A DNA stretch of 64,000 bases, taken from positions 1,353 through 65,352 of the IMG/VR virus record IMGVR_UViG_3300046051_000044. One strand, written 5' to 3'. The notes under the pieces are model-generated. The model ran no database searches. It saw nothing but the letters and a program-made list of their open reading frames with translations, and was not told the DNA's origin. The position numbers and the translations under genes are program-made. This document shows positions 10,199-14,511 of this stretch, piece after piece; position 1 is the first letter of the stretch, and each line of letters opens with the position of its first letter. The stretch is from a virus.

Positions 10199-11398
10199 TC
10201 ACTCTGTAGTGGTCGCGATATTGATAGCGGCATTGACGTCGGCGTGGACTTCGTAGCCACAGCGCCGGCAGGCGAAGTCCCGGCCATCGCGGTACTCGCG
10301 GTCGGTCTGCCCGCATTTCCGGCAGGTGATGCTCGTGTATCGCGGGTCGACAAACCGAACCGGTATCCCTGCCTCGGTCGCTTTGTACGCAATCTTCTCT
10401 TGAATCTGCTCAAACGGCCAGTCGTGAATCGGGTCGTCGGCCGTCTCCCGGTAGTGGGTGAGGTCTTCGAGATGAATCACGCAGGGCCTGTGGTCGGCGG
10501 CGAGGTCGACGGACCGGCGACTTGCGACATTCGTGATATGGTCTGTATAGCGGTCATAGGTCAACCCGGTTTGTTTGATTGCCCGGAGGTCCCCCCGCTC
10601 CATCGCCTCTGTGCGTTTCTGCTTGATTCGTTCGCGGTGATGGCGGTACTCGCCACCGCTTTCCATCTCGACGGCTCGAATATCGGGCGACTCAGCATCC
10701 GGCTGGTTGACGACGGCAACCGCGACGAGCGGGTCATCGTTGAGGTCGACGCCGACGACCGTCGAGACGTCAGGCGCGTCGTACACGTCGACGTCCCACG
10801 ACACCGTGAGATGGCACGTCAGCCGGCCGTCGTCGGTGAGATGGAGCTCGGCGCTCCCGGCGCTGGCGTCGTCATCCTCGTCAGTGACCCGTTCGAGAAA
10901 CTCGCGCTGATAGTCACCTATCTGAAGGTGGAACCAGAGCGGGTTATAGGGAATAAAACTCGCCTTCAGCCCCCACCCCCGGTCGTTGCGTTCGATTGTG
11001 ACGTCCTGATGCGAGAGTCCCAGATACGACCCATCGCCGAACTGCGGCCGCTTTCCAGGCTTTCCATTCGACGCCCACGAGTTGAACGACGACGCGACTT
11101 TCTGCCCGGCGACCCGTGCAATCGTCGCTTTCACAGTCCGGTCTTCGTTGGGGAACGCCCGCGTAACCATCCGGTACATCGTCGGGTTTCGTTGCGTCCA
11201 CTCGTAGTCTGGGAATGACGGCAGCATGGCCGCCATATGCTCCGTCATGGCCTGATACTCCTCGATGCCCTCACGAACCAACTCGTTTTTCTGCTGACTC
11301 GTCTCCAGCTGGCAGACGATGGTCCGCGTAACAGATGTTGTCGTTATTTCTGGGGTGTATTCCGTGAGTGGCTGTTGGTCAGGGTCAGACTCTGTCAT
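10199..11398 (-). CDS. tnpB: TnpB-family (IS1341-type) / Cas12f-like RNA-guided RuvC nuclease, CRISPR-adjacent
   Basis: RuvC-I VVGVDLN, RuvC-II IHLEDL, Zn finger CRKC...CRRC, RuvC-III HADVNAAINIA; 399 aa; ends a few residues after RuvC-III; no tnpA nearby. Confidence 0.9.
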   Translation of the reverse strand: MTESDPDQQPLTEYTPEITTTSVTRTIVCQLETSQQKNELVREGIEEYQAMTEHMAAMLPSFPDYEWTQRNPTMYRMVTRAFPNEDRTVKATIARVAGQKVASSFNSWASNGKPGKRPQFGDGSYLGLSHQDVTIERNDRGWGLKASFIPYNPLWFHLQIGDYQREFLERVTDEDDDASAGSAELHLTDDGRLTCHLTVSWDVDVYDAPDVSTVVGVDLNDDPLVAVAVVNQPDAESPDIRAVEMESGGEYRHHRERIKQKRTEAMERGDLRAIKQTGLTYDRYTDHITNVASRRSVDLAADHRPCVIHLEDLTHYRETADDPIHDWPFEQIQEKIAYKATEAGIPVRFVDPRYTSITCRKCGQTDREYRDGRDFACRRCGYEVHADVNAAINIATTTE

Positions 11399-11440
11399 AG
11401 TGGGGCACCCGCGGCCGTTCGACGAGAGTGTAGACGAGTA

Positions 11441-11450
11441 GAATTAAAAG
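11441..11450. promoter_or_regulatory. AT-rich TATA-like box between tnpB and the putative ncRNA
   Basis: GAATTAAAAG (TTTTAA on the - strand), ~27 nt before the first hairpin on + and ~47 nt before the tnpB ATG on -. Confidence 0.5.
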
Positions 11451-11471
11451 GGTTGCTAACACATTCCACAA

Positions 11472-11830
11472 CAACCGGGTGAGGCTATAGGTCTCGCCCC
11501 GGGACGCGGTACCTTCACCGCGTGTGGCGGATTGATGCTATCCGTCACGGGTCCGCCCGCCGCAAAGCGTGGCTTGGACGTCCCTGGCTTGGATACATGG
11601 GGCTGGACATTCGCCCCACGGGACTCCGCCACGATAGGCGAGAAGCGTGACATAGACAGCCACCGCTGCCGGGCTAGTACTACACGAACAGAGGTTGACC
11701 CTCCCCTTCGCAGGGGAATCTGTGGTCGGAAATCACGAACCTCGTGGCCGCCGTCCGCGGACGGAAGGAACGCCTCAAATGCAAGAGTGGACACCCCGCC
11801 GTACACTGAGGGGCCTTCTCCAAGGCCCCG
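11472..11830 (+). ncRNA. Putative structured scaffold RNA (tracr/scout/omegaRNA-like)
   Basis: Dense stems seen by eye: 11477-85/11491-99; ACGCGGT 11504-10/ACCGCGT 11517-23 with loop ACCTTC; GTGGCGGA 11524-31/TCCGCCAC 11625-32; GTCCC/GGGAC; CCCCT/AGGGG; CCGTCC/GGACGG; terminal GGGGCCTT 11810-17/AAGGCCCC 11822-29. No convincing ORF. Confidence 0.6.
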
Positions 11831-11899
11831 TGAAAGCGGAAAAAGAAACATCATACTCATACCGTTCAACTCCGGGGGCTGGGGAAAATAATAACCCTC

Positions 11900-12024
11900 T
11901 CCTGCAAAGGAAGTTTCGGCGATTTTCCATCGACCCCCGGGGGGAACACCTCCTATTGCCGGTCGATGGTCCTGGCCGACGCTAATCCCATCTGTTAGGC
12001 CGCGAAATGGGCAAATTCGACATG
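11900..12024 (+). promoter_or_regulatory. CRISPR leader, haloarchaeal type I-B-like
   Basis: Inverted repeat CCATCGACC (11927-35)/GGTCGATGG (11961-69) around CCCCGGGGGG; ends ...GACATG directly before repeat 1, as recalled for Haloferax/Haloarcula leaders. Confidence 0.7.
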
Positions 12025-14511
12025 GTTTCAGACGAACCCTTGTGGGGTTGAAGGGACCTGAACGTGCCACTCGCCGTATCGTATCTCGATACCGTTTCAG
12101 ACGAACCCTTGTGGGGTTGAAGGGAGGCGTTCAAACGGGCCGAGCAGCAGGTCGGAGTGTTTCAGACGAACCCTTGTGGGGTTGAAGGGAGAAGTATTCC
12201 GGCGTCGAGTCGGGGAAGGACGGGTTTCAGACGAACCCTTGTGGGGTTGAAGGATCGCTGACGCCCCGGTAACGCTGCTCGCGGTCGCGTTTCAGACGAA
12301 CCCTTGTGGGGTTGAAGGGTTTTTCTGATGTTTCATGGCCGAAAAAGTGACCGTGTTTCAGACGAACCCTTGTGGGGTTGAAGGGGGGTCTTGGACAGGC
12401 GTACCCGTACGCGATCCTTAGTTTCAGACGAACCCTTGTGGGGTTGAAGGCCGCCATCGTTTGCCGTGAAAAACACCACCCGCTGGTTTCAGACGAACCC
12501 TTGTGGGGTTGAAGGATGGCCTCGACGGTCGGCTCGAACGCCTCCGCCATGGTTTCAGACGAACCCTTGTGGGGTTGAAGGTTTGTCGATGACCGTCACC
12601 GGGACGTGGTCGTGCAGGCGTTTCAGACGAACCCTTGTGGGGTTGAAGGCCGCTTCAGTTCCTGGGCAGCCTTCCGATTACTGATCGTTTCAGACGAACC
12701 CTTGTGGGGTTGAAGGGACCGTGACGAGATGGACGAGGTGGACGCTGACGAGGTTTCAGACGAACCCTTGTGGGGTTGAAGGGTCCACGGCAACACGGGC
12801 GTGGGCAAGACGCTCGCGTTTCAGACGAACCCTTGTGGGGTTGAAGGGGTAGGCACATCCCGCCGTAGGGCCACCCGCCTTTGAGCCCGTTTCAGACGAA
12901 CCCTTGTGGGGTTGAAGGGACACACTGGTTTCTGGAAGATCGAGAGACGGAGGGTTTCAGACGAACCCTTGTGGGGTTGAAGGCGCAACGCGGATTCGCG
13001 GGAGATACGCACCCACGGCGTTTCAGACGAACCCTTGTGGGGTTGAAGGTCGCGACAGGCGTTGACCAACCTGTCGACGAACATGGTTTCAGACGAACCC
13101 TTGTGGGGTTGAAGGTCGACGTCTGCCGTGACGCTCACGTTGCCGTTCGAGTTTCAGACGAACCCTTGTGGGGTTGAAGGGATGATATCGCCCTCAGTGA
13201 TCGGGCCGTCGATCGATGTTTCAGACGAACCCTTGTGGGGTTGAAGGTCGACCTCGACCATGGCGCTCTCGAACTCGCGGGCGGTTTCAGACGAACCCTT
13301 GTGGGGTTGAAGGCTCCTTGTCGAGGCGCTGGCCGTTCTCGCCGACGGGCTGGTTTCAGACGAACCCTTGTGGGGTTGAAGGGGTTCGAGCCGGGCGATG
13401 GTGACGTCGACGCTCACGAGCGTTTCAGACGAACCCTTGTGGGGTTGAAGGAGCTCGAAGGGGCCGGATCGAGAGGCGGGCGAGTGGCGTTTCAGACGAA
13501 CCCTTGTGGGATTGAAGGGAATGGGAATACCGTCCAGTCGACCATCGACGGGTCGTTTCAGACGAACCCTTGTGGGGTTGAAGGGACGGTGATCAGCCGG
13601 ATGGGTGGATTAGATCATCGTTTCAGACGAACCCTTGTGGGGTTGAAGGAGCCGAAGCCAGCGACACCACACGCCGGGAAGTGCTGGTTTCAGACGAACC
13701 CTTGTGGGGTTGAAGGAGAGGTGGCGCCGAATGATCGACGCCCCGTGGTGGTGGTTTCAGACGAACCCTTGTGGGGTTGAAGGCCACACTGCTCGTATCC
13801 AGTCCAGGATCCTCGGCCGGTTTCAGACGAACCCTTGTGTGGGGTTGAAGGCTTGAAGGCACTCAGGTCATCCAGTAGGCGCCCGATGTTTCAGACGAAC
13901 CCTTGTGGGGTTGAAGGGCCTCGCCCTGCGTGATCGGCCGGACGCGGACGTAGTTTCAGACGAACCCTTGTGGGGTTGAAGGCCCTTGAGCGTAATGACG
14001 TCCTCTCGAATGAACGGAGTTTCAGACGAACCCTTGTGGGGTTGAAGGGCCGTGTCCGTTGTTATTGTCGCGTCAATATCGCCCGCGTTTCAGACGAACC
14101 CTTGTGGGGTTGAAGGGATGCGTGATCCCGGCGTCGGCTATGACCCCGACTAGTTTCAGACGAACCCTTGTGGGGTTGAAGGGAAGAAAACCCCGTAGGT
14201 GGCTTCACCGATGATGAAGTTTCAGACGAACCCTTGTGGGGTTGAAGGCGCGACAACGACACGGAGTGCATCGCAATCGAGGTAGTTTCAGACGAACCCT
14301 TGTGGGGTTGAAGGCGCGCGTACATCCCTGTCGACGGCCACCGCGATGAGAGTTTCAGACGAACCCTTGTGGGGTTGAAGGGAGTTTGGGCTGGGATCGG
14401 CGGTCGAGTTCCGCGCGTTTCAGACGAACCCTTGTGGGGTTGAAGGGGGTAGCGGTCGAGATACCGCCGGGCGATTGTGAGGTTTCAGACGAACCCTTGT
14501 GGGGTTGAAGG
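12025..14511 (+). CRISPR. CRISPR array, 38 repeats / 37 spacers (35-41 nt), repeat GTTTCAGACGAACCCTTGTGGGGTTGAAGG
   Basis: Counted by hand; all 38 copies end in GAAGG. Repeat 23 has GGGATTG; repeat 28 has a TG insertion. Differs from the canonical haloarchaeal I-B repeat only at position 30 (C to G). Confidence 0.98.

What the first reader, a model, noticed from the sequence alone, without database searches (positions are those of the whole stretch)
10199..14511. Candidate TnpB-derived (Cas12f/V-U-like) CRISPR system using a haloarchaeal type I-B-type array
Seen: an intact 399-aa RuvC D-E-D + Zn-finger nuclease gene with no tnpA and no obvious IS ends. Divergent from it lie a ~360-nt structured RNA, a I-B-like leader and 37 spacers. 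No other cas gene is in the window except a solo Cas4-like gene ~3 kb away. Established: type V effectors arose repeatedly from TnpB next to CRISPR arrays, and Cas6 processing of I-B repeats leaves an 8-nt 5' handle before the spacer, the same repeat-then-guide order type V guides use. Inference: the nuclease may load crRNA (handle GUUGAAGG) plus a separate scaffold RNA, borrowing host Cas1/2/4 (and possibly Cas6). The 5' TTC PAM would suit both I-B adaptation and a TnpB-style 5' TAM. I cannot confirm that this is undescribed.
Basis: partly seen in the sequence, partly recalled or inferred. Interest (0 to 1): 0.97.

Follow-up and report, generated by a model that had tools for sequence, protein, structure and literature searches.

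The report
Cas12f-like TnpB using I-B CRISPR arrays
A small TnpB/Cas12f-like nuclease gene, a conserved ~380-nt structured RNA and a borrowed type I-B CRISPR array form one inherited module in salt-loving archaea and their plasmids and viruses, and a loop of the RNA co-varies with the last bases of the repeat, as expected if a single-protein nuclease reads guides made for a multi-protein CRISPR system.

Summary
The window holds an intact 399-aa TnpB gene (10199-11398, minus strand), a structured RNA (about 11470-11850, plus strand), a canonical haloarchaeal I-B leader (about 11923-12024) and 38 repeats with 37 spacers (12025-14511). The only cas-like gene on the 81-kb viral contig is a Cas4-like nuclease.

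- TnpB relatives down to about 40% identity form one clade and are single-copy per genome.
- No tnpA, conserved 3' omegaRNA or IS ends were found.
- Every relative with enough flank carries the same RNA followed by a leader and an array. The tnpB position varies, with three architectures.
- The RNA shows 56 of 63 predicted pairs with compensatory changes.
- The last 6 nt of one hairpin loop are complementary to the last 6 nt of the neighbouring repeat. They co-vary across 19 distinct combinations (0 of 100,000 shuffles reach the observed value), including a second repeat family and decayed arrays.
- The predicted fold is closest to AsCas12f.
- All nine protospacers found carry a 5'-TTC PAM.
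- Five of the nine host genomes lack detectable Cas1, Cas6 and Cas7.

The best reading is a type V-like effector with a split guide that uses I-B arrays. No biochemistry supports this yet. I found no description of it in the literature I could search.

The parts
10199..11398 (-). tnpB / Cas12f-like RNA-guided nuclease gene, 399 aa, with an intact RuvC D-E-D triad and a CxxC..CxxC zinc finger
   Evidence: The PDB profile search gives AsCas12f/CnCas12f at 1e-33 and ISDra2 TnpB at 1e-4. The AlphaFold model has pLDDT 88, and its best PDB matches are AsCas12f 8DZJ/8J12 at TM 0.72-0.74.
11442..11449 (.). AT-rich box (AATTAAAA) between tnpB and the RNA. It is a candidate TATA element for one or both divergent transcripts (inference only).
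   Evidence: An AT-rich box sits at the same place in all 11 aligned loci (alignment A1). It lies about 26 nt before the first conserved helix of the RNA. No transcript data are available.
11470..11862 (+). Scaffold (tracr/omega-like) RNA. The conserved core ends in the near-invariant GGAAAAAGAAA (11838-11848), followed by a semi-conserved tail ATCATACTCATAC (11850-11862). The ends are inferred from conservation, not mapped.
   Evidence: Alignment A3 of 31 sequences gives 63 consensus pairs, 56 of them with compensatory changes. (Near-)invariant G.U pairs fix the strand as array-sense. The MFE z-score is -3.29. There is no Rfam match. The RNA is absent from the five TnpB-less I-B leaders that aligned. 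In 401 genomes it was found only with the TnpB clade, plus one truncated relic.
11504..11523 (+). Anti-tag hairpin: stem ACGCGG/CCGCGT and loop UACCUUCA. CCUUCA (11512-11517) is complementary to the last 6 nt of the repeat (UGAAGG).
   Evidence: Across 27 loci and 19 distinct loop/tag combinations, 99 of 114 positions pair. Shuffled pairings give 85.1 +/- 2.7, and 0 of 100,000 shuffles reach the observed value. Compensatory changes occur at tag positions -6, -4, -2 and -1.
11923..12024 (+). Canonical haloarchaeal type I-B CRISPR leader (TTCCATCGACCCCCGGGGG .. TATTGCCGGTCGATGG .. CATG, then repeat 1)
   Evidence: It aligns with the leaders of I-B arrays that lack TnpB in G185, G001 and G223. 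At least two of those arrays lie within a few kb of a Cas7 gene.
12025..14511 (+). CRISPR array: 38 repeats of 30 nt (I-B type, Rfam CRISPR-DR24) and 37 spacers
17660..18358 (+). Cas4-like PD-(D/E)XK nuclease. It is common in archaeal viruses, and a link to the module is not shown.
   Evidence: NCBIfam cas4 scores 24 bits, below the cut-off of 65. It matches PHROG 1706 at 8.5e-22, Pfam PDDEXK_1 and PADLOC Cas4. I did not look for it systematically in the other loci.
28763..28798 (-). Protospacer of spacer 16 (36/36 identical) with a 5'-TTC PAM, inside the tape-measure gene of the same contig. Three more lie at 25372-25407 (-), 20441-20476 (-) and 22276-22310 (+).

Best explanation
This is a TnpB-derived, Cas12f-like single-protein CRISPR effector module. 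It has captured a pre-existing class 1 (type I-B) array instead of growing its own.

**Components**
- The nuclease gene.
- A ~380-nt structured scaffold RNA transcribed towards the array.
- A complete I-B leader and an I-B array.

**Proposed mechanism**
1. The array is extended by a host's I-B Cas1-Cas2-Cas4 through the intact leader, selecting TTC-flanked protospacers.
2. The pre-crRNA is cut, by host Cas6b where present, leaving the 8-nt 5' tag GUUGAAGG in front of the spacer.
3. The last 5-6 nt of that tag pair with the loop of a conserved scaffold hairpin. This recreates in trans the short guide-adjacent repeat/anti-repeat stem (pseudoknot) of Cas12f and TnpB guide RNAs.
4. The nuclease-scaffold-crRNA complex then cleaves DNA that matches the spacer next to a 5' T-rich motif.

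The module rides on plasmids, proviruses and viruses, so it can work beside Cascade or in hosts without cas genes.

**Shown:** the conserved synteny, the RNA structure, the loop/tag covariation, the intact catalytic residues, the Cas12f-like fold, the canonical leader and the TTC PAMs.
**Inferred:** transcription and RNA ends, crRNA processing, RNP assembly, DNA cleavage and the TAM.
For: 1. **Linkage.** All nine genomes with this TnpB clade among 401 Halobacteria have one copy each.
   - Eight of the nine carry the RNA plus 1 to 48 repeats beside it. The ninth has a truncated gene inside an array and no RNA.
   - 45 loci, counting the window, have an RNA hit. Every contig that reached beyond the leader showed repeats or repeat-like units there, except L064, L069 and L072, where the expected leader motif was not found.
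2. **Clade.** RNA- and array-linked TnpBs form one clade (94/91 support), separate from 14 array-less TnpBs.
3. **Order of parts.** The order RNA, then leader, then array is constant. The tnpB position varies: divergent, co-directional upstream, or convergent at the far end of the array.
4. **Not a transposon layout.** Nothing is conserved downstream of the tnpB stop codon, so there is no canonical 3' omegaRNA. No tnpA is present on the contig.
5. **RNA structure.** 56 of 63 predicted pairs show compensatory changes, and (near-)invariant G.U pairs set the strand.
6. **Loop/tag covariation**.
   - It holds for the I-B repeats.
   - It holds for a different 37-nt repeat family ending in UGAAAC, whose loop is GUUUCA.
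   - It holds for L011, whose decayed repeats keep only the 3' CGGGAG, with loop CUCCCG.
7. **Leader.** The leader matches the canonical I-B leader, and the RNA is not part of it.
8. **PAM.** TTC is present on 4 of 4 protospacers in the window and on 5 of 5 HATV-3 protospacers of the H. marismortui pNG300 array.
9. **Protein.** D-E-D and the zinc finger are conserved. The nearest solved relatives by sequence and by fold are AsCas12f, CnCas12f and OsCas12f.
10. **cas-less hosts.** G002 (23 repeats), G313 (17 repeats), G240 (5 repeats), G258 and G014 have no detectable Cas1, Cas6 or Cas7.
Against: - No expression, binding or cleavage data exist.
- Only 5-6 bp of pairing was found, and no long repeat/anti-repeat duplex. 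That is weaker than in known Cas12f systems.
- About half of the combinations leave tag position -1 unpaired, and two loci (L065, L037) pair poorly.
- The window's own array carries a perfect TTC-flanked match to the same contig. An active effector with a TTC TAM should not tolerate that.
- The function of the near-invariant 3' end of the scaffold (GGAAAAAGAAA plus tail) is unexplained.
- In cas-less hosts there is no known route for processing or for acquiring spacers.
Confidence: 0.7

Rival explanations
1. The RNA-nuclease pair is an accessory or counter-defence device of mobile elements rather than an interference effector. By pairing with the universal 8-nt tag it would bind or sequester I-B crRNAs or pre-crRNA. 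That could regulate the array, or blunt host Cascade immunity against the plasmid or virus that carries it.
For: - The module sits on plasmids, proviruses and a head-tailed virus.
- The loop matches the tag shared by all of a host's I-B crRNAs.
- The window tolerates a perfect self-targeting spacer.
Against: - The RuvC triad and zinc finger are conserved throughout the clade, which a pure RNA sponge would not need.
- The module keeps its own array, including in genomes without any Cascade to inhibit.
- The pNG300 array holds ordinary antiviral spacers against HATV-3.
Confidence: 0.12
2. This is an IS1341-type TnpB element, or its immobilised remnant, that homes next to I-B leaders. The RNA is its omegaRNA with a fixed guide, and the array is used only by host Cascade. 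The neighbourhood would reflect target-site choice, not shared function.
For: - TnpB elements are guided by a flanking-sequence guide.
- The semi-conserved 13 nt after the scaffold (11850-11862) could be such a fixed guide.
- Insertion of tnpB near pre-existing arrays is an accepted possibility (PMC10691335).
Against: - There is one copy per genome.
- No tnpA, conserved ends or 3' omegaRNA were found.
- Three different gene orders keep RNA-leader-array constant.
- The tail motif is absent from most TnpB-less leaders.
- Target-site choice does not predict loop/tag covariation, least of all with a second repeat family and with decayed repeats that keep only the tag.
Confidence: 0.1
3. The adjacency on this particular contig is an assembly or recombination artefact. 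A host or plasmid segment bearing the array and tnpB would have been joined to a virus that the array had been immunised against, so the module is not truly virus-borne.
For: - Four spacers match the contig's own tail genes with TTC PAMs, and the three older self-matching spacers carry 1-3 mismatches while the youngest has none.
- The record is linear and estimated 77% complete.
- No integrase was found.
Against: - Almost all 76 ORFs across the contig lack family hits, as is usual for haloviruses, and no host housekeeping genes flank the module.
- The module lies in other predicted proviruses and viral contigs too (L047-L049).
- This rival concerns only the carrier, not the nature of the module.
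Confidence: 0.25

Closest known systems
Type V-F (Cas12f) CRISPR-Cas with tracrRNA
   Same: - The protein is of similar size (about 400 aa), with RuvC D-E-D and a zinc finger.
- It is the nearest solved relative by sequence (1e-33) and by fold (TM 0.72-0.74).
- No adaptation genes sit beside the effector.
- It uses a long structured non-coding RNA. A short 5-7 bp repeat/anti-repeat stem next to the guide is part of Cas12f guide RNAs (PMC11246509).
   Different: - The repeats and leader are those of a class 1 I-B system, not a type V array.
- No long repeat/anti-repeat duplex was found.
- The scaffold is about 380 nt, against about 200 nt for Cas12f1 (PMC12255294).
- The array is usually upstream and divergent rather than downstream.
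- The NCBIfam Cas12f2 model scores 102 bits against a cut-off of 450.
TranC, transposon-CRISPR intermediates (Jin et al. 2025, Cell; read only through PMC13639567 and bioRxiv 10.64898/2026.03.27.714800)
   Same: - TnpB-sized effectors are linked to arrays.
- The guide is functionally split into a scaffold (tracr) part and a crRNA part.
- Some are carried by viruses.
   Different: - TranC repeats are described as derived from the transposon's own right-end RNA. Arrays in the follow-up preprint were mostly of unknown subtype, 32-38 bp. Here the array is a bona fide I-B array with its leader.
- LaTranC is a distant match (3e-5).
- I could not check whether a haloarchaeal clade is among the numbered TranC clades.
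V-U groups of Altae-Tran et al. 2023 (PMC10691335)
   Same: - About 50 independent TnpB-to-Cas12 transitions are described.
- V-U variants occur in archaea and on plasmids and associate with arrays only.
- The paper leaves open the possibility that tnpB inserted near pre-existing arrays.
   Different: - In almost all conserved associations reported there, the array lies downstream of the effector gene.
- No text I could read names this haloarchaeal clade, its RNA or I-B repeats.
- The supplement is not held, so membership in one of the 40 groups cannot be excluded.
scoutRNA-dependent Cas12c/Cas12d (Harrington et al. 2020; from my own knowledge, cited as ref. 38 in PMC11246509)
   Same: A separate small RNA joins the crRNA through only a few nucleotides of complementarity to the repeat.
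   Different: - Those effectors are much larger, with their own arrays and cas1.
- The scoutRNA is short.
- There is no class 1 array.
Type III systems sharing type I arrays and the Cas6 8-nt tag (from my own knowledge)
   Same: A second effector uses crRNAs from an array maintained by another system's adaptation and Cas6 processing. The 8-nt 5' tag is the recognised feature.
   Different: There the tag is read by protein subunits of a class 1 complex. Here it would be read by an RNA loop of a class 2-type effector.
Transposon-borne OMEGA TnpB (ISDra2 type)
   Same: It has the same protein superfamily and catalytic core. A structured RNA with a guide-adjacent pseudoknot is characteristic of it (PMC13639567).
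   Different: Here there is no tnpA, no multi-copy spread and no 3' omegaRNA, and the RNA is encoded apart from the gene. The fold match to ISDra2 TnpB is weaker (TM 0.56).

Membership tests
TnpB/Cas12 RuvC-nuclease superfamily | RuvC-I/II/III catalytic D-E-D | tested here: met
   D217 and D386 are invariant and E310 is conserved in at least 90% of 27 relatives. They align to the Cas12f catalytic blocks.
TnpB/Cas12 RuvC-nuclease superfamily | C4 zinc finger between RuvC-II and RuvC-III, and the TNB domain | tested here: met
   C358, C361, C376 and C379 are invariant. Pfam PF07282 matches at 83.6 bits against a cut-off of 26.3. NCBIfam guided_TnpB scores 114.7 against 100.
TnpB/Cas12 RuvC-nuclease superfamily | Overall fold | tested here: met
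   The model has pLDDT 88.3. Foldseek gives AsCas12f at E 3e-23 and TM 0.72-0.74, and ISDra2 TnpB at TM 0.56.
IS200/IS605 (IS1341-type) transposon with OMEGA TnpB | Mobility: tnpA in cis or trans and several copies per genome | tested here: not met
   Each of the 9 positive genomes among 401 has one copy. No Y1 transposase appears among the 76 contig ORFs.
IS200/IS605 (IS1341-type) transposon with OMEGA TnpB | omegaRNA overlapping the 3' end of tnpB and running downstream to the right end | tested here: not met
   Eleven loci show no conservation beyond the stop codon. The conserved RNA lies elsewhere and is oriented towards the array.
IS200/IS605 (IS1341-type) transposon with OMEGA TnpB | Conserved left and right ends with subterminal hairpins | tested here: inconclusive
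   None is evident from the flank alignments. No dedicated search for ends was made.
Type V CRISPR-Cas (V-F / V-U / TranC-like) | Evolutionarily conserved linkage of the effector gene to a CRISPR array | tested here: met
   The clade is monophyletic.
Type V CRISPR-Cas (V-F / V-U / TranC-like) | Scaffold or tracrRNA with complementarity to the repeat | tested here: met
   Only a short (5-6 nt) anti-tag loop was found, with covariation. No long duplex was found.
Type V CRISPR-Cas (V-F / V-U / TranC-like) | RNA-guided, PAM-dependent DNA cleavage by the effector | not testable with these tools
   This needs RIP-seq, interference assays or in vitro cleavage.
Named subtype Cas12f2 (NCBIfam NF049972) | Score above the curated cut-off | tested here: not met
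   102.3 bits against a cut-off of 450.
Haloarchaeal type I-B CRISPR locus | I-B repeat | tested here: met
   38 matches to Rfam CRISPR-DR24 at or above the gathering score.
Haloarchaeal type I-B CRISPR locus | Canonical leader and leader-repeat junction | tested here: met
   It aligns with the leaders of TnpB-less I-B arrays in three genomes. At least two of those arrays lie within a few kb of a Cas7 gene.
Haloarchaeal type I-B CRISPR locus | TTC PAM on protospacers | tested here: met
   4 of 4 in the window and 5 of 5 for pNG300 against HATV-3.
Haloarchaeal type I-B CRISPR locus | Adjacent cas6-cas8b-cas7-cas5-cas3-cas4-cas1-cas2 operon | tested here: not met
   No Csh2 is found on the contig. 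The ORF census finds no Cas family except a Cas4-like protein. Five host genomes lack Cas1, Cas6 and Cas7.

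The most novel reading that the evidence does not exclude
This would be a natural hybrid of class 1 and class 2 CRISPR immunity. A Cas12f-like TnpB, carried by haloarchaeal plasmids and viruses, is programmed by crRNAs from I-B arrays with intact leaders, and in one sub-lineage from arrays of another Cas6-type repeat family. 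A ~380-nt scaffold RNA recognises only the last 5-6 nt of the repeat tag.

It would be a living example of a type V system born by capture of a pre-existing array rather than by duplication of omegaRNA. It would also be an effector whose guide supply depends on another system's adaptation machinery. The reading assumes this has not been described before.
Probability: 0.5. Interest if true: 0.9.

Novelty: new variant of a known kind. Interest (0 to 1): 0.85.

Why it matters
**Origin of type V systems.** TnpB-to-Cas12 transitions are known to be frequent, but how the array is acquired is still debated: omegaRNA duplication or insertion next to an existing array (PMC10691335). This clade would document the second route, with the donor system still recognisable from its I-B repeat, leader and TTC PAM.

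**A minimal rule for coupling a scaffold to a crRNA.** The rule would be a 5-6 nt loop/tag match. It could be tested by compensatory mutation and might be useful for reprogramming compact nucleases with Cas6-made guides.

**Orphan arrays.** It offers an explanation for I-B arrays on haloarchaeal plasmids and viruses, and in genomes without cas genes.

**Mobile elements.** It suggests that mobile elements carry a portable single-protein interference module that uses the host's adaptation machinery.

Tried and rejected
- **Long anti-repeat.** RNAduplex of the intergenic RNA (both strands) against the repeat in 7 loci scored no better than shuffled repeats. I rejected a long anti-repeat. The short loop/tag match was found later by reading the alignment.
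- **Canonical 3' omegaRNA.** Nothing is conserved after the stop codon.
- **The RNA as part of the leader.** Leaders that lack TnpB diverge upstream of the TTCCGTCGACC block.
- **The conserved region as protein-coding.** It has indels that are not multiples of three, compensatory pairs, and no ORF that passes the GC3 filter.
- **Rfam.** No family matches.
- **Protospacer searches.**
  - The window array found no hits in 'phages'. In 'plasmids' it matched only other arrays' repeats, with no protospacer evident.
  - The H. amylolytica and G313 arrays found nothing in 'phages'.
  - Spacers 16 and 23 found nothing in IMG/VR.
  - No self-targeting was found in 8 other loci.
- **Collection scans.** The search for related loci with the single protein on genome contigs gave only one locus.
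- **Literature.** The PNAS 2023 supplement and Tordoff 2025 are not held. The primary TranC paper is not held either. Nine full-text searches found no description of a haloarchaeal TnpB linked to an I-B array.
- **Not run.** The count of structure pairs was not run on A3 because it needs a 676-character typed structure. The per-pair counts were used instead.

Full report
**What is in the window.**
- The window is bases 1353-65352 of an 80.9-kb IMG/VR record, linear and estimated 77% complete.
- The contig encodes a head-tailed haloarchaeal virus. Its genes include the terminase large subunit (39760-41484), portal (37846-39729), tape measure (25925-29650), a Mu-F-like protein and a capsid protein.
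- The portal is about 25% identical to that of the Halobacterium myovirus ChaoS9.
- Almost all other ORFs lack family hits.
- The finding's coordinates hold four parts, detailed below: tnpB, the scaffold RNA, the leader and the array.
- The only cas-like gene among 76 ORFs is a Cas4-like nuclease at 17660-18358.

**The neighbourhood is a conserved module.**
- Protein search found hundreds of haloarchaeal relatives, the best at 71% identity.
- The first contigs fetched already showed the pattern:
  - The Haloarcula amylolytica homologue (62% identity) has 23 of the same repeats, divergent from tnpB, and a conserved intergenic region.
  - The contigs of the 71% homologue end in the repeat.
- In a sample of 401 Halobacteria genomes, nine carry a clade member, always as one copy.
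- With 7-kb flanks and a second look for diverged repeats, eight of the nine have the RNA plus 1 to 48 repeats next to it.
- The ninth (Halegenticoccus) has an N-terminally truncated gene inside an array and no RNA.
- One of the eight is H. marismortui plasmid pNG300. It has 48 repeats and no cas gene on the plasmid.
- Metagenome and IMG/VR scans added about 35 more loci with the RNA.
- TnpBs of 25-38% identity in the same scans have neither the RNA nor repeats.
- A maximum-likelihood tree puts all 35 RNA- and array-linked proteins in one clade (94/91), apart from 14 array-less TnpBs.
- BLAST of the RNA against the same 401 genomes hit five of the TnpB-positive genomes. It also hit one truncated relic with two decayed repeats and no tnpB.

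**Not a transposon layout.**
- Eleven loci share nothing downstream of the tnpB stop codon.
- No tnpA is present, and copies do not multiply within a genome.
- The order RNA, then leader, then array is constant, while tnpB takes three positions:
  - divergent from the RNA, as in the window and most loci;
  - upstream and co-directional, which arose twice and is nested in the tree;
  - convergent at the far end of the array (L058).

**The RNA.**
- An alignment of 31 distinct sequences in the array direction gives a consensus structure of 63 pairs.
- 56 of those pairs show compensatory double changes, including a long-range closing helix.
- Three pairs are G.U or U.G in 29-31 of the 31 sequences. 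These would be C.A on the other strand, so the RNA is read towards the array.
- Single-sequence folding agrees: z = -3.29 against -1.93.
- Conservation runs from about 11470 to the near-invariant GGAAAAAGAAA (11838-11848), plus a 13-nt semi-conserved tail.
- An AT-rich box (11442-11449) lies about 26 nt before the first helix at the same place in all aligned loci. It could be the promoter. This is inference.
- Rfam has no match.

**Leader versus RNA.**
- The ~100 nt before repeat 1 align with the leaders of I-B arrays that have no tnpB, in H. marismortui, Halegenticoccus and a third genome.
- Shared features are a GC palindrome flanked by TCGAC arms, a fixed spacing and CATG at the junction.
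- Upstream of that block those leaders are unrelated to the RNA.
- The array therefore keeps a complete I-B leader, and the RNA is an addition tied to tnpB.

**The link between RNA and array.**
- A hairpin near the 5' end of the RNA (11504-11523) has the loop UACCUUCA.
- Its last six bases are complementary to the last six bases of the repeat, UGAAGG. Those bases lie inside the 8-nt tag that Cas6b leaves before the spacer (the tag is known from Haloferax work; this is from my own knowledge).
- Matched loop/tag pairs across loci:

| Loop | Repeat tag |
|---|---|
| CCUUCG | CGAAGG |
| GCUUCA | UGAAGC |
| GCUUCG | CGAAGC |
| CCUCCA | UGGAGG |
| AUUCCA | UGGAAG |
| GUUUCA | UGAAAC |
| CUCCCG | CGGGAG |

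- The GUUUCA/UGAAAC pair belongs to a different 37-nt repeat family.
- The CUCCCG/CGGGAG pair comes from a locus whose repeats have decayed everywhere except that 3' end.
- Over 19 distinct combinations, 99 of 114 positions pair. Shuffled pairings give 85.1 +/- 2.7, and none of 100,000 shuffles reaches the observed value.
- The sequences are related, so the shuffle count is not a strict probability. However, compensatory changes occur at four different positions and in separate branches.
- Position -1 is unpaired in about half of the combinations, and two loci fit poorly.
- No longer anti-repeat exists.
[quoted passage not shown] A pseudoknot is also conserved in ISDra2 omegaRNA (PMC13639567).

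**The protein.**
- The catalytic triad and zinc finger are conserved across the clade.
- A profile search of PDB sequences ranks AsCas12f and CnCas12f first (1e-33), far ahead of ISDra2 TnpB (1e-4) and LaTranC (3e-5).
- The AlphaFold model (pLDDT 88) matches AsCas12f best, at TM 0.72-0.74, with ISDra2 TnpB at 0.56.

**Adaptation and targets.**
- Four spacers of the window's array match tail-module genes on the same contig: 36/36, 35/36, 33/36 and 33/35 identical.
- Each of the four protospacers is preceded by TTC.
- Five spacers of the pNG300 array match Haloarcula tailed virus 3 with 0-4 mismatches, again all preceded by TTC.
- The arrays therefore look as if they were filled by I-B adaptation and aimed at head-tailed viruses.
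- Type I PAMs and TnpB/Cas12 TAMs both lie 5' of the target on the non-target strand (established knowledge), so the same spacers are geometrically usable by both.

**Host cas content.**
- Csh2 (Cas7) is present in four of the nine genomes.
- Cas7, Cas1 and Cas6 were not found in the other five, whose tnpB-linked arrays have 23, 17, 5, several (the 37-nt repeat family) and 1 repeats.
- These are draft genomes, so absence is not proven.
- In H. amylolytica the tnpB-linked array is the only array found.

**Interpretation.**
- The simplest account of all this is a type V-like effector with a split guide. The scaffold RNA binds the nuclease, and the crRNA is tethered through the tag/loop stem.
- Supply of guides is outsourced to I-B adaptation, and to Cas6b processing where that enzyme is available.
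- The rivals, an RNA sponge or regulator, an IS homing to leaders, and a chimeric contig, are given with their odds in the rival section.
- The main unexplained points are:
  - the perfect self-targeting spacer in the window;
  - the role of the near-invariant scaffold 3' end;
  - how processing and spacer gain would work without Cas6 and Cas1.

**Novelty.**
- TnpB-derived effectors next to arrays are a known kind. About 50 origins and 40 V-U groups are reported, some archaeal (PMC10691335). The TranC intermediates have split guides (Jin 2025, read through PMC13639567 and a 2026 preprint).
- What I did not find described, in nine full-text searches, is:
  - this haloarchaeal clade;
  - its use of bona fide I-B arrays with an intact leader;
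  - the scaffold RNA;
  - the loop/tag rule.
- A 2025 paper mentions the Halegenticoccus TnpB only as a mobile-element marker (PMC12596717).
- The clade may already carry a V-U or TranC number in supplements I could not read.
- I therefore file it as a new variant of a known kind, of high interest.

Noticed in passing
window 13050-13085, 13519-13554, 14117-14152 and 14382-14416 (spacers 16, 23, 32, 36); targets at 28763-28798, 25372-25407, 20441-20476 and 22276-22310: Four spacers match tail-module genes on the same contig, all with a 5'-TTC PAM. The youngest of the four (spacer 16) is a perfect match, and the three older ones carry 1, 3 and 2 mismatches. This is self-targeting on what is annotated as a virus record and remains unexplained. 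It could reflect a chimeric assembly, a virus or plasmid recombinant, or a tolerated or regulated system.
   Followed up: partly
window 14545-15255 (-) and 15277-16134 (-): Two DNA methyltransferase genes, one a C5-cytosine type, lie directly after the distal end of the array. Whether methylation of the carrier's own DNA relates to the tolerated self-targeting is pure speculation.
   Followed up: no
window 6047-7897 (+) and 7881-9731 (+): Two tandem ORFs of 616 aa each have no Pfam, NCBIfam or PHROG hit. The second has homologues (29-37% identity over at least 90% of its length) on 39- and 76-kb haloarchaeal plasmids, and partial matches on four others. This suggests a plasmid-like or phage-plasmid backbone.
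   Followed up: partly
window 13820-13851 and 13489-13518: One repeat carries a 2-nt insertion (32 nt), and one carries a G>A change in the stem. The other 36 repeats are identical.
   Followed up: yes
L043 (Halegenticoccus tardaugens NZ_SDIC01000002), about 4718-11139: An N-terminally truncated clade member (351 aa) sits inside an I-B array, in the same orientation, about 6 kb downstream of a Cas7 gene and without the scaffold RNA. It is probably a decayed or rearranged copy.
   Followed up: partly
L137 (G368:C1:3866000-3879000), 6191-6652: This is a relic. It holds the array-proximal 225 nt of the scaffold RNA, lacking the anti-tag hairpin, plus two degenerate repeats. No tnpB lies within 6 kb.
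   Followed up: yes
L046 (H. marismortui pNG300), 20072-23194: The 35 leader-proximal repeats differ by 2 nt from the 10-13 distal ones. The distal repeats are identical over the 29 nt compared to the repeats of the cas-linked arrays on the 50-kb plasmid of the same strain. This suggests the array was seeded from the cas-linked locus and then grew with its own repeat variant.
   Followed up: partly
L046 (pNG300), 25009-26358: A second gene annotated 'IS200/IS605 family transposase' (449 aa) lies tail-to-tail with the clade tnpB. I did not notice one at this position in the other loci.
   Followed up: no
L017/L018 (H. amylolytica), 7701-12599: Next to the module lies a four-gene minus-strand operon (360, 191, 379 and 698 aa) with no Pfam hit on record. 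It may be an unknown defence or mobile-element cassette.
   Followed up: no
L135 (G223:C3:81000-81900), just upstream of the leader: An I-B leader without tnpB carries GGAAAAAGTAC..TTGATTCATAC just upstream. This resembles the 3' end and tail of the scaffold RNA and may be another deletion remnant.
   Followed up: no
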